Source of the DNA: a phage
NCBI GenBank assembly: GCA_024682255.1
Contig: GCA_024682255.1_4716.1
Strand: one strand, 5' to 3'
DNA: 64,000 nt
Part shown: in pieces, positions 48,956 through 50,306 of the stretch
How positions within the stretch are numbered: the first letter of the stretch is position 1
Layout: each line of letters starts with the position of its first letter
Translations under genes and position numbers: made by a program
The notes under the pieces: model-generated
Database searches by the model: none
Told to the model about the DNA's origin: nothing
Seen by the model: only the letters and a program-made list of their open reading frames with translations

Positions 48956-49975
48956 TTACACCGCCACCTTAGCCTTGATAGCCGGATGTGATTGATATCC
49001 GACGAACACGAAGTCTTCGTAACGGTAATCCGTAATACTTTCCGGTTTACGTACGATCGTTAGCTTCGGTAACGGATACGGTTCACGGCTGAGCTGCTCT
49101 TTAACCTGTTCGAAGTGGTTGTGATAGATGTGGCAGTCTCCACCCGTCCACACGAACTCGCCAACATCCATATTCAGCTGTTGGGCAAGCATGTGCGTTA
49201 GCAACGAATATGATGCGATGTTGAACGGTGTTCCGAGTAGCACGTCCTGTGATCTCGCGGTCAACATACACGACAAGGCACGCGTCGGTACGTTATGTGC
49301 ATTCAACCAAAGTTCCGTTTCACTATGTCGTACATCATCCGTAACCCACTGAGTTCTTAGTACGTCGTTACGTTGGACATAATCAACGCGTTCATCGATC
49401 GTGAGTTTGTGGGTATAGAACTGATAGAAACTGTGGCATGCGGGAAGCGCCATATCGTCTAAATCACCTACGTTCCACGCGCTAACGATGATCCGTCGAG
49501 AATCAGGATCTTCTTTAAGCTGGCGCATCACGTTTGCAATCTGATCGTGAGGTTTAACATACAAGAGATGTTTGACCATACCGGCGTCAACAACACCGCA
49601 ATACTCATAGCCGCGTTGCATCAACTCACGAGTACGTTCTGTATCGTGCGGAACAACCACTTTGTAGTCGATCCATTCCCGCCATTGTTTGCCGTAAATT
49701 GGTCCTAGATTCCCTTCTTCGTCAGCCCATTCATTCCAAATACGAACACCGTTATCTTGAAGATAAGCAACGTTTGTGTCACCGTTAAGAAACCAGAGCA
49801 GTTCGTGGATAACGCTCTTAAGGTGAATCTTCTTGGTGGTTACCAGCGGGAATCCTTTCTTCAAGTCAAAACGCATCTGACGTCCGAATACGGAACGGGT
49901 CCCGGTGCCTGTACGATCAGCTTTATCGCGACCGTTATCCATGATGTCTTGCAAAAGGTCCAAATACTGTTTCAT
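48956..49975 (-). CDS. thyA: Thymidylate synthase (ThyA family) with two insertions
   Basis: Motifs [41 protein letters not shown], catalytic Cys in [23 protein letters not shown]; 339 aa versus 264 in E. coli. Confidence 0.9.
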
Positions 49976-50175
49976 TTTAATCCTCTAAGTGTTTCAAGTA
50001 GTTCCTGAAATTTATAACGATATTTAGAATCACGTAACGTGTAACAGCAACCAAGTAACACGTTATACGCGTAATCAACTTGTAAACCACGAACCTTCGG
50101 ATCTGACGAAAGATTCAATTGTACATCATCAAAAATCCACGCTTCAACGTTCCTCTTGTGTTCCTTCGTTAACAT
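49972..50175 (-). CDS. Hypothetical small protein (about 67 aa)
   Basis: ORF 49972-50184; ATG 50175 with GAGGTG RBS; overlaps thyA start by 4 nt. Confidence 0.5.
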
Positions 50176-50306
50176 CGTTTTCACCTCGTCGTAAAAGTAA
50201 ATAGAGTTTTGTCGAGACGCCCTAATTACTTACAACGTCGGTTCCCCCGGCTTCAGAGAATTCTCAAAATCCGTTAGTTTTGATAGACAGGGTAAGACGG
50301 CATAAA

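What the first reader, a model, noticed from the sequence alone, without database searches (positions are those of the whole stretch)
48956..49975. Thymidylate synthase with two large insertions
The core is near-collinear with E. coli ThyA including the catalytic Cys, but has about 33-aa and about 40-aa insertions (after KQWREW and after FYQFYT), giving 339 aa. Insertions near the dimer interface or active site could alter substrate use (hydroxymethylase-like activity on dUMP or dCMP for base modification) or regulation. The SAM-methyltransferase and GNAT genes elsewhere in the window hint at nucleotide or DNA modification.
Basis: partly seen in the sequence, partly recalled or inferred. Interest (0 to 1): 0.4.

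Follow-up and report, generated by a model that had tools for sequence, protein, structure and literature searches.

The report
Phage thymidylate synthase with conserved add-ons
This is an ordinary-looking thymidylate synthase (the enzyme that makes the DNA building block dTMP) from a Goslar-like giant phage, carrying two extra surface modules that many phage versions share, one of them also found in a solved bacterial structure, so it is real but not a sign of exotic DNA chemistry.

Summary
Window 48956-49975 (minus strand) encodes a 339-aa ThyA that is collinear with E. coli ThyA (67% core identity). It has two insertions: residues 102-143 (net +34 aa) and 189-232 (net +41 aa).

The modification hypothesis is not supported.
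- Every catalytic and specificity residue is canonical: Cys180, Asn252, the four phosphate arginines, Glu58, Tyr94, Trp80/83, Asp244 and the C-terminal tail.
- The protein passes NCBIfam thymidylate-synthase equivalog cut-offs.
- It is structurally far closer to thymidylate synthases than to hydroxymethylases.

The window is 94% identical at DNA level to phage Goslar, whose gp141 (98% identical protein) is already annotated as thymidylate synthase.

Neither insertion is unique.
- Insertion 1 aligns without gaps to the solved Burkholderia thailandensis ThyA (PDB 3V8H).
- Insertion 2 is a confidently predicted three-helix module with near-invariant Arg196 and Pro230. It occurs in about 100 of the 150 best 50%-identity clusters, mostly phage, and has no solved counterpart.
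- Insertion 2 is under strong purifying selection (dN/dS about 0.04).

The two sites are insertion hot-spots and vary independently. My best reading is a canonical enzyme with peripheral structural or docking modules. Interest is low to moderate.

The parts
48956..49975 (-). thyA ORF, 339 aa plus stop codon (48956-48958)
   Evidence: ORF list. PF00303 full length, E = 8.8e-114. NCBIfam NF002497 415.9 bits against a cut-off of 327. 98.2% aa identity to Goslar gp141 'thymidylate synthase'.
49673..49975 (-). Core block 1, residues 1-101 (= E. coli ThyA 1-101). Contains Arg21, Lys48, Glu58, Trp80, Trp83 and Tyr94.
49547..49672 (-). Insertion 1, residues 102-143 ([42 protein letters not shown]). 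It replaces the short Ec 102-109 hairpin. Predicted fold: strand, helix, beta-hairpin.
49412..49546 (-). Core block 2, residues 144-188 (= Ec 110-154). Contains Arg160/Arg161 (Ec R126/R127), the catalytic Cys180 (codon 49436-49438) and His181.
49280..49411 (-). Insertion 2, residues 189-232 ([44 protein letters not shown]). It replaces the Ec 155-157 hairpin turn between the two interface strands. Predicted fold: three helices. Anchor residues are Glu195, Arg196 (codon 49388-49390) and Pro230 (codon 49286-49288).
   Evidence: Boundaries; translation. AF2 gives three helices with pLDDT 87-97. Family motif T-x-E-L-T/S-x-x-E-R ... L-D-x-x-x-V/I-P-x-R. Arg196 is 94%, Pro230 93% and Glu195 80% conserved in 90 sequences. 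dN/dS is 0.042 against Goslar. No homologue among PDB sequences.
48959..49279 (-). Core block 3, residues 233-339 (= Ec 158-264). Contains the interface strand LSCMLTAR, Arg241, Ser242, Asp244, Asn252 (codon 49220-49222), His282, Tyr284 and the C-terminal ...KVAV. Non-canonical residues are Thr239 and Ala240 (Ec Y164, Q165).
49972..50184 (-). Upstream 70-aa ORF whose stop overlaps the thyA start (ATGA). It is probably co-transcribed and translationally coupled; function unknown. Given as context only.
   Evidence: Equivalent to Goslar gp142. No Pfam or PHROG hit. Not conserved next to thyA in other phage groups.

Best explanation
The gene encodes a canonical folate-dependent thymidylate synthase (ThyA, dUMP + 5,10-methylene-THF -> dTMP + DHF) of a Goslar-like nucleus-forming jumbo phage. 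It supplies dTMP for phage DNA synthesis.

The two insertions are inherited, selectively maintained surface modules placed in two loops that are insertion hot-spots across the ThyA family.
- Insertion 1 turns the short Ec 102-109 hairpin into a small strand-helix-hairpin subdomain. The same subdomain is seen in the solved Burkholderia thailandensis ThyA.
- Insertion 2 replaces the turn of the dimer-interface beta-hairpin with a three-helix cap. The cap is anchored by near-invariant Glu195-Arg196 and Pro230 and has a hypervariable middle helix.

Shown: identity as ThyA, the intact catalytic machinery, the position, fold confidence, conservation, selection and distribution of the insertions.

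Inferred:
- Insertion 2 lies at the far end of the two interface strands, about 30 A from Cys180, on the pole of the dimer opposite the active sites.
- The modules therefore do not change the chemistry.
- They most likely act as a stabilising extension of the dimer and/or an exposed docking surface.
For: Identity:
- PF00303 matches full length.
- Two NCBIfam thymidylate-synthase equivalogs plus TIGR03284 exceed their cut-offs.
- Core identity to E. coli ThyA is 67%.
- AF2 model: pLDDT 95.3, pTM 0.92.

Chemistry:
- R21, K48, E58, I79, W80, W83, Y94, R126, R127, L143, C146, H147, R166, S167, D169, L172, G173, F176, N177, H207, Y209 and the C-terminal V-A-V are all conserved in the query.
- These positions are conserved in 131-150 of the 150 representatives, depending on the position.

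Insertions are inherited and functional:
- The same architecture occurs in Goslar, SPN3US, CR5 and many Erwinia jumbo phages.
- Insertion 2 is also in Delftia RG-2014, Aeromonas HJ05, Rhizobium N46, Xanthomonas LucasX and Salmonella SA002.
- About 100 of the 150 best 50%-identity clusters have a site-C insert of at least 28 aa with the same end motifs.
- The 201phi2-1 TS model superposes at TM 0.92, against about 0.73 for TS without the insertions.
- Insertion 2 has dN/dS 0.042, with 10 synonymous and 2 non-synonymous changes against Goslar.
- Insertion 1 aligns gap-free to 3V8H, a gene the authors list as putatively essential in Burkholderia (PMC3561365).

Geometry: continuous strands, model residues 180-189 and 231-243, flank insertion 2.

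Context: DNA-modification systems are reported to be less common in Chimalliviridae (PMC13282480).
Against: - No enzymatic, structural or DNA-composition data exist for this protein or any insertion-2-bearing homologue that I could find.
The placement of insertion 2 relative to the two-fold axis and to the partner subunit is therefore inference.
- Two positions on the strand after insertion 2 are non-canonical (Ec Y164 -> T239, Ec Q165 -> A240). From memory, Gln165 helps orient Asn177, so a subtle change in pyrimidine discrimination cannot be excluded. Against this, 39 of the 150 representatives also lack Gln there while keeping Asn177.
- Sequence criteria that separate dUMP hydroxymethylases from thymidylate synthases are poorly defined.
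Confidence: 0.82

Rival explanations
1. Same canonical enzyme, but the insertions, especially the variable exposed helix of insertion 2, are docking surfaces. They would recruit TS into a phage nucleotide-synthesis assembly comparable to the T4 dNTP-synthetase complex, or bind another phage or host partner. This is a rival only for the role of the insertions, not for the enzyme's identity.
For: - Insertion 2 has conserved anchors and a hypervariable, mildly acidic exposed middle (median net charge -2), the pattern expected of a lineage-specific interaction surface.
- The insertion-2 exit motif occurs in 28 viral contigs against 2 loci in 596 Gb of species-representative genomes.
- Amino-acid differences between the window and Goslar cluster at insertion 2 and the strand after it.
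- From memory, T4 TS takes part in a multi-enzyme dNTP complex.
Against: - No conserved neighbouring gene is shared by unrelated insertion-2-bearing phages.
- The two insertions occur independently of each other (Fisher p = 0.46).
- Insertion 1 is present in a housekeeping bacterial ThyA.
- No interaction data exist.
Confidence: 0.25
2. The enzyme is a pyrimidine hydroxymethylase or has altered specificity (dUMP -> 5-hm-dUMP, or action on dCMP), feeding a DNA base modification.
For: - TS-fold enzymes do perform these reactions in some phages (PMC7824862).
- Ec Q165 is Ala and Ec Y164 is Thr here.
- A methyltransferase-like ORF and a GNAT exist in the window.
Against: - Asn, not Asp, occupies the Ec177 position, and the complete TS C-terminal tail and folate-contact residues are retained.
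- TS equivalog cut-offs are passed.
- No hypermodification genes are annotated in the Goslar region corresponding to the window.
- The methyltransferase-like ORF has only sub-threshold generic hits and lies 13 kb away.
- Modification systems are reported as less common in Chimalliviridae.
- The insertions are far from the active site along the strands and occur in many ordinary-looking ThyAs.
Confidence: 0.04
3. The insertions are decayed remnants of mobile elements (mini-intein, homing-endonuclease or intron-derived sequence) tolerated as neutral filler.
For: - thyA is a classic target of mobile elements. The RisingSun thyA is split by a GIY-YIG endonuclease gene.
- 34 of the 150 representatives carry domains of roughly 110-285 aa at or next to site B, some with weak I-HmuI NUMOD-like hits.
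Against: - At 42 and 44 aa both are too small for inteins, and they lack intein junction residues.
- Insertion 2 is under strong purifying selection (dN/dS 0.042).
- Anchor residues are near-invariant across 90 diverse sequences.
- Both fold with pLDDT of about 87-97.
- Insertion 1 has the same length and fold in a solved bacterial enzyme.
Confidence: 0.05

Closest known systems
E. coli ThyA (264 aa; e.g. PDB 2TSC, 1TYS)
   Same: 67% identity over 262 aligned core positions. Three collinear blocks, all catalytic and ligand-binding residues and the C-terminal tail are shared. Foldseek TM = 0.94 normalised to the E. coli chain.
   Different: It lacks both insertions, having an 8-residue hairpin at 102-109 and a 3-residue turn at 155-157. 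It has Y164 and Q165 where the phage enzyme has T239 and A240, and A144-P145 where the phage has P178-A179.
Burkholderia thailandensis ThyA, PDB 3V8H (323-aa type, NCBIfam NF010393/PRK13821)
   Different: It has no insertion 2 (about 50 query residues are unaligned). Identity is only 38%. The query scores 225 bits against the family cut-off of 576. Burkholderia replaces Trp83 (PMC3561365), whereas the phage enzyme keeps it.
Thymidylate synthases of other nucleus-forming jumbo phages: Goslar gp141, SPN3US, CR5, Erwinia phages and 201phi2-1 (B3FJL1)
   Same: Same two-insertion architecture. Identity is 98% to Goslar and 52-62% to the SPN3US/Erwinia group. The 201phi2-1 model superposes at TM 0.92. 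All are annotated simply as thymidylate synthase.
   Different: The middle of insertion 2 differs in sequence and length. 201phi2-1 carries about 120 further residues. RisingSun thyA is interrupted by a homing-endonuclease gene. None has been characterised biochemically as far as I could find.
Lactobacillus casei TS (316 aa) and eukaryotic TS inserts
   Same: These are precedents for large surface insertions that leave TS chemistry unchanged. From memory (Carreras & Santi 1995; Schiffer 1995), the human 8-residue insert at 146-153 lies at the insertion 1 site. The L. casei 50-residue insert and the human 12-residue insert lie at 'site A' (around Ec 85-91), which is also expanded in 45 of 148 representatives here.
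   Different: These inserts are at other positions or much shorter. None lies in the interface hairpin turn where insertion 2 sits.
T4 dCMP hydroxymethylase (gp42) and CMP hydroxymethylase MilA
   Different: Identity is 20-23% against 38-60% to TS. Asp replaces the specificity Asn and the C-terminus differs. The phage enzyme has the TS-type residues throughout.

Membership tests
Thymidylate synthase ThyA (EC 2.1.1.45; Pfam PF00303; NCBIfam TIGR03284 / NF002497) | Full-length profile match above curated cut-offs | tested here: met
   PF00303: 379.6 bits (cut-off 24.3), profile positions 1-266 of 266. NF002497: 415.9 against 327. NF002499: 415.3 against 405. TIGR03284: 356.6 against 108.
Thymidylate synthase ThyA (EC 2.1.1.45; Pfam PF00303; NCBIfam TIGR03284 / NF002497) | Catalytic nucleophile Cys followed by His (Ec C146-H147) | tested here: met
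   C180-H181. The preceding Pro is shifted by one position (L-P-A-C-H here, A-P-C-H in E. coli).
Thymidylate synthase ThyA (EC 2.1.1.45; Pfam PF00303; NCBIfam TIGR03284 / NF002497) | dUMP phosphate cage: R21, R126', R127', R166, S167 | tested here: met
   R21, R160, R161, R241 and S242.
Thymidylate synthase ThyA (EC 2.1.1.45; Pfam PF00303; NCBIfam TIGR03284 / NF002497) | Asn at Ec177, which selects dUMP over dCMP | tested here: met
   N252. 147 of the 150 representatives also have Asn.
Thymidylate synthase ThyA (EC 2.1.1.45; Pfam PF00303; NCBIfam TIGR03284 / NF002497) | Folate-binding and proton-relay residues (K48, E58, I79, W80, W83, Y94, D169, L172, F176, H207, Y209) and the C-terminal tail that closes the site | tested here: met
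   All identical in the query. The tail is ...A-K-V-A-V against ...A-P-V-A-I in E. coli.
Thymidylate synthase ThyA (EC 2.1.1.45; Pfam PF00303; NCBIfam TIGR03284 / NF002497) | TS fold | tested here: met
Thymidylate synthase ThyA (EC 2.1.1.45; Pfam PF00303; NCBIfam TIGR03284 / NF002497) | Obligate homodimer with shared active sites; dUMP -> dTMP activity | not testable with these tools
   No multimer modelling or coordinates were available, and no assay could be run.
Burkholderia-type long ThyA (NCBIfam NF010393 / PRK13821; PDB 3V8H) | Score at or above the curated equivalog cut-off (576 bits) | tested here: not met
   225.1 bits. Ten other insertion-bearing proteins scored 131-194 bits.
Burkholderia-type long ThyA (NCBIfam NF010393 / PRK13821; PDB 3V8H) | Strand-helix-hairpin subdomain in place of the Ec 102-109 hairpin | tested here: met
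Pyrimidine (d)NMP hydroxymethylases of the TS fold (T4 gp42 dCMP hydroxymethylase, MilA, phage dUMP hydroxymethylases) | Asp at the Ec177 position (cytosine-specific enzymes) | tested here: not met
   Asn252.
Pyrimidine (d)NMP hydroxymethylases of the TS fold (T4 gp42 dCMP hydroxymethylase, MilA, phage dUMP hydroxymethylases) | Closer in sequence or structure to hydroxymethylases than to TS; divergent or absent TS C-terminal tail | tested here: not met
Pyrimidine (d)NMP hydroxymethylases of the TS fold (T4 gp42 dCMP hydroxymethylase, MilA, phage dUMP hydroxymethylases) | Linked genes for base hypermodification (hm-dNMP kinase, glycosyl- or other transferases acting on DNA, dCTPase or dTTP-excluding enzymes) | tested here: inconclusive
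   None is annotated in the Goslar region matching the window. The two suspect ORFs are a sub-threshold generic methyltransferase-like protein and a generic GNAT. Most ORFs are 'hypothetical' and the rest of the roughly 237-kb genome was not examined.
Intein or in-frame homing-endonuclease insertion | At least about 130 aa, Cys/Ser/Thr at the first residue and after the insert, C-terminal His-Asn, endonuclease or Hint domain | tested here: not met
   The insertions are 42 and 44 aa. They begin with Ile and His and end with Pro-His and Thr-Arg. The only Pfam domain in the protein is PF00303.

The most novel reading that the evidence does not exclude
Insertion 2, a phage-enriched three-helix cap on the dimer-interface hairpin with invariant anchors and a hypervariable exposed helix, is a dedicated docking module. 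It would tether thymidylate synthase to other phage nucleotide-metabolism enzymes, or to the cytoplasmic face of the phage nucleus, so that dTMP synthesis is physically coupled to the replication compartment. A less likely variant: together with the Q165A/Y164T changes on the adjoining strand, it relaxes pyrimidine specificity in the Goslar clade.
Probability: 0.1. Interest if true: 0.55.

Novelty: new variant of a known kind. Interest (0 to 1): 0.22.

Why it matters
As a catalyst this enzyme adds little. It is a standard dTMP-producing enzyme already annotated in the near-identical phage Goslar, and it gives no evidence for modified bases.

What is mildly useful is the family-level picture.
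- ThyA has at least three insertion hot-spots.
- One module (insertion 2) is widespread in ThyAs of large proteobacterial phages and rare in cellular genomes.
- That module is strongly conserved at its anchors, has no solved structure and no described function.
- Profile-based annotation (Pfam, PHROGs) hides it.

If insertion 2 proved to be an assembly or docking element, it would give a handle on how large phages organise nucleotide supply. It would also show a TS dimer-interface embellishment absent from host and human enzymes.

Tried and rejected
1. Hydroxymethylase or altered specificity: rejected on residues, equivalog scores and structural ranking.
2. Intein or intron remnant: rejected on size, junction residues, selection and fold confidence.
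3. Link to the SAM-methyltransferase and GNAT genes: rejected. Both are generic or sub-threshold and lie 13 kb away.
4. PDB homologue of insertion 2: none found. The only hit is a spurious E = 0.95 match to a splicing factor.
5. NF010393/PRK13821 as 'the' model for the insertion-bearing form: the query and ten others all score far below its cut-off. It represents the Burkholderia type only.
6. Core-only NJ tree to test a single origin of each insertion: poorly resolved.
   - Site C shows only a modest signal: 29 parsimony steps against at least 33 in 300 shuffles.
   - Site B is not separable from random.
   - Single against multiple origins is therefore unresolved.
7. Conserved-neighbour search for a partner of insertion 2 across 44 loci: only synteny by descent within the SPN3US/Erwinia group, and nothing shared with the Goslar-like window or unrelated phages.
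8. Are the insertions part of the PHROG or Pfam consensus? No. The profiles skip them.
9. AlphaFold-database fold search: the library was unavailable.
10. Literature searches for any description of these insertions, Goslar or SPN3US TS biochemistry, or the role of Gln165 found nothing specific.
11. Spatial analysis of the model (distances, contacts, dimer) was not possible because coordinates are not exposed and multimers cannot be submitted.
12. My reference window:48956-49972:- dropped the start Met rather than the stop codon. Alignments A1 and A2 and the model are therefore numbered protein minus 1. This affects no conclusion.

Full report
**Observation**

The window carries a 339-aa ORF on the minus strand at 48956-49975. 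A GAGG ribosome-binding site lies 8 nt upstream, and the start overlaps the stop of a 70-aa upstream ORF (ATGA).

Pfam PF00303 (thymidylate synthase) matches end to end at E = 8.8e-114. Against E. coli ThyA structures the protein aligns in three collinear blocks: 1-101 = Ec 1-101, 144-188 = Ec 110-154, and 233-339 = Ec 158-264.
- Insertion 1 is residues 102-143 (window 49547-49672). It replaces 8 residues, a net gain of 34.
- Insertion 2 is residues 189-232 (window 49280-49411). It replaces 3 residues, a net gain of 41.

**Source**

The gene is 94% identical at DNA level and 98.2% at protein level to gp141 of Escherichia phage vB_EcoM_Goslar. That phage is a PhiKZ-related jumbo phage, and gp141 is already annotated 'thymidylate synthase' (PMC6563267).

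**Is it a thymidylate synthase, or something that changes the base?**

The core is 67% identical to E. coli ThyA. Every position I know to be involved in catalysis or ligand binding is identical:
- Arg21, Lys48, Glu58, Ile79, Trp80, Trp83, Tyr94;
- Arg126', Arg127', Leu143, Cys146, His147;
- Arg166, Ser167, Asp169, Leu172, Gly173, Phe176, Asn177;
- His207, Tyr209, and the C-terminal hydrophobic tail.

Asn at the Ec177 position (Asn252 here) is the determinant of dUMP over dCMP. The cytosine hydroxymethylases carry Asp there.

The only departures near the active site are Thr239 and Ala240 at Ec Tyr164 and Gln165. Gln165 is replaced in 39 of the 150 family representatives, all of which keep Asn177.

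The 'SAM-methyltransferase' and 'GNAT' genes do not support a modification pathway. The first is an ORF with only sub-threshold generic class-I hits, and the second is a generic acetyltransferase. Both lie about 13 kb away. Nothing annotated in the Goslar region that corresponds to the window suggests base hypermodification. [quoted passage not shown]

**The insertions are not peculiar to this phage**

tblastn shows the same 337-355-aa architecture, at 52-62% identity, in SPN3US, CR5 and dozens of Erwinia, Salmonella, Proteus and Escherichia jumbo phages.

Used alone as queries:
- Insertion 1 also finds Salmonella phage Arash.
- Insertion 2 finds phages of quite different kinds: Delftia RG-2014 (a Schitoviridae member), Aeromonas HJ05, Rhizobium N46, Xanthomonas LucasX and Salmonella SA002.

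An alignment shows conserved ends for each insertion:
- Insertion 2: FQFYT-R-E-L-S/T-x-x-E-R ... L-D-x-x-x-V/I-P-x-R-x-L-S-C.
- Insertion 1: W-x-D-T-R/K-I/V-V ... G-Y/F ... K/R-x-I/H-D-Q.

I ran an exhaustive HMMER search of 1.84 billion cluster representatives and mapped the best 150 onto E. coli numbering. That gave:
- about 100 clusters with at least 28 aa at the insertion 2 site;
- 95 clusters with at least 20 aa at the insertion 1 site;
- 45 clusters with at least 15 aa at a third site (around Ec 85-91, which from memory is where the L. casei 50-residue insert lies).

The catalytic residues are retained almost throughout. This list is biased towards insertion-bearing sequences, because the insertions add to the score.

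The two insertions occur independently of each other (Fisher p = 0.46). Their presence is only weakly coherent on a core-only tree that is itself poorly resolved. I therefore cannot say whether each arose once.

**Insertion 1 has a solved counterpart**

In the model, insertion 1 is a strand, a helix and a beta-hairpin with pLDDT 93-97. 3V8H comes from a survey of putatively essential Burkholderia genes. [quoted passage not shown]

The query is not a member of the Burkholderia equivalog family: it scores 225 bits against a cut-off of 576. From memory, the same loop holds the 8-residue eukaryotic insert of human TS.

**Insertion 2 has no solved counterpart**

It is predicted as three helices (model residues 192-201, 203-211 and 216-225) between two long continuous strands (180-189 and 231-243).

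Those strands carry the catalytic Cys and His at one end and Arg, Ser and Asp at the other. The insertion therefore sits at the far end of a hairpin of about 10 residues, roughly 30 A from Cys180. This follows directly from the strand lengths.

The strand after the insertion corresponds to LSCQLYQR, the sequence of the peptide used to target the human TS monomer-monomer interface (PMC8041318). The partner subunit's Arg126'/127' reach into each active site. From that I infer, but could not test, that both hairpin turns lie on the pole of the dimer opposite the active sites.

Across 90 diverse sequences, Arg196 (94%), Pro230 (93%) and Glu195 (80%) are nearly invariant. The middle helix and loop vary freely in sequence and length and are mildly acidic.

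Between the window and Goslar, insertion 2 shows 10 synonymous and 2 non-synonymous changes. Its dN/dS is 0.042, the same as the core at 0.033.

A degenerate DNA pattern for the exit motif ([V/I]-P-x-R-x-L-S-C-Q-L-Y-Q-R-S) gave these counts:
- It matches 28 IMG/VR viral contigs of 5.5-248 kb (all but one at least 27 kb).
- It matches only 2 loci in 596 Gb of species-representative bacterial and archaeal genomes.
- One of those 2 is next to a ParA-like gene. The other is a Saccharibacteria MAG contig.

A 316-aa copy on a Methylobacterium 'plasmid' sits among ribonucleotide reductase, MazG, DHFR, a lytic transglycosylase and a dCTP deaminase, which is phage-like DNA. Among predicted viral structures, the thymidylate synthase of Pseudomonas phage 201phi2-1 superposes on the model at TM 0.92, against about 0.73 for TS without the insertions. 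The architecture therefore extends to the Pseudomonas nucleus-forming phages.

**What the insertions do**

Nothing places them in the active site, and nothing links them to another gene. A search for shared neighbours across 44 loci found only synteny by descent within the SPN3US/Erwinia group, and none shared with the Goslar-like window.

I commit to this reading: a canonical thymidylate synthase whose two peripheral modules are structural.
- Insertion 1 enlarges the variable 'small-domain' side of the enzyme, as in Burkholderia.
- Insertion 2 caps the distal end of the interface hairpin. There it most plausibly stabilises the dimer or offers a lineage-specific docking surface.

The docking alternative rests on analogy with the T4 dNTP-synthesising complex (from memory). 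It is attractive because insertion 2 is phage-enriched and has a hypervariable exposed face. It has no direct support.

For context:
- GFP-tagged thymidylate synthase is excluded from the phage nucleus in PhiPA3 infections (PMC9067925).
- Antisense knock-down of PhiKZ thymidylate synthase gp235 has only weak effects (PMC12571901).

**Comparison with what is known, and novelty**

The protein is a member of ThyA by every sequence and fold criterion I could test. Dimerisation and activity were not testable.

It shares one module with the Burkholderia-type ThyA without belonging to that equivalog. It fails the tests for hydroxymethylases, inteins and bifunctional DHFR-TS.

The gene itself is already annotated in Goslar. 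What appears undescribed is the insertion-2-bearing architecture, which profile annotation hides because Pfam and PHROG consensus columns skip both insertions. I rate it a new variant of a known kind, of low to moderate interest.

**Limits**

- The AlphaFold-database fold library was unavailable.
- The counts from the 150 representatives are biased towards insertion-bearing sequences.
- The DNA-pattern scan samples only one version of the exit motif.
- The roles I assign to Gln165, the positions of the human and L. casei inserts, and the T4 complex rest on my own knowledge, not on tests made here.

Noticed in passing
Outside the window: proteins P0164, P0131, P0142, P0192, P0138, P0159, P0267 and others (34 of the 150 representatives): Some ThyA representatives from public genomes and metagenomes carry whole extra domains of roughly 110-285 aa at or next to the insertion 1 hairpin. 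In most they lie between the same two beta arms that flank insertion 1. In a few (e.g. P0138, P0159, P0267) the domain lies before the Y-G-x-Q-W-R motif. They are not intein-like at the junctions. Several share a W-x-x-M-x-x-R-C-Y motif and give weak, sub-threshold I-HmuI NUMOD-like hits. They may be an in-frame DNA-binding or homing-endonuclease-like domain inside an intact enzyme.
   Followed up: partly
Outside the window: loci L002-L004; proteins P0004-P0120; 'plasmid' NZ_CP134650.1: Phage-like contigs of about 222-227 kb (with a 2388-aa SLT virion protein near thyA) carry a 64-65% identical two-insertion ThyA. They recur in many E. coli, Shigella and Salmonella isolate assemblies; P0032 alone is on 38 contigs. 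One is filed as an Enterobacter ludwigii plasmid. No phage in the INPHARED collection other than Goslar exceeds 62% ThyA identity to the window protein; the contigs' own ThyA was not searched there. This may be a jumbo phage persisting in cultures as a carrier state.
   Followed up: partly
L008 (Erwinia phage RisingSun) 844-3069: The thyA gene is split into 286-aa and 99-aa parts by a GIY-YIG homing-endonuclease gene, an arrangement like a group-I intron. The split lies downstream of insertion 2, not at either insertion site.
   Followed up: no
window 49547-49672 (insertion 1), compared with Goslar: Insertion 1 has only 2 nucleotide differences in 126 nt against Goslar (dS 0.04), whereas dS is 0.32 in the core and 0.47 in insertion 2. 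At the gene-wide divergence about 7-8 differences are expected, so P is about 0.02. This could be chance, a recent recombination patch or an overlapping nucleic-acid constraint.
   Followed up: no
window 49256-49261 and 49238-49243 (Thr239-Ala240; Val245-Leu246), with 49406-49408 and 49298-49300: Five of the six amino-acid differences from Goslar (K190E, A226T, T239L, V245T, L246V) cluster in insertion 2 and the interface strand after it; the sixth is P142H in insertion 1. This clade also replaces the usually conserved Tyr164-Gln165 pair with Thr-Ala.
   Followed up: partly
L015 (Methylobacterium indicum plasmid pVL1_2) 1-12948: This 128-kb 'plasmid' region reads like phage DNA: B12-dependent ribonucleotide reductase, MazG, DHFR, an insertion-2-bearing thyA, a lytic transglycosylase and a dCTP deaminase. 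It is probably a phage-plasmid or an unrecognised phage.
   Followed up: no
L005, L023, L030, L037 and related loci (SPN3US/Erwinia group), directly upstream and about 2 kb downstream of thyA: A multi-copy family of 187-342-aa proteins flanks thyA on both sides in SPN3US-like phages. It is absent from the Goslar-like window. Its function is unknown.
   Followed up: no
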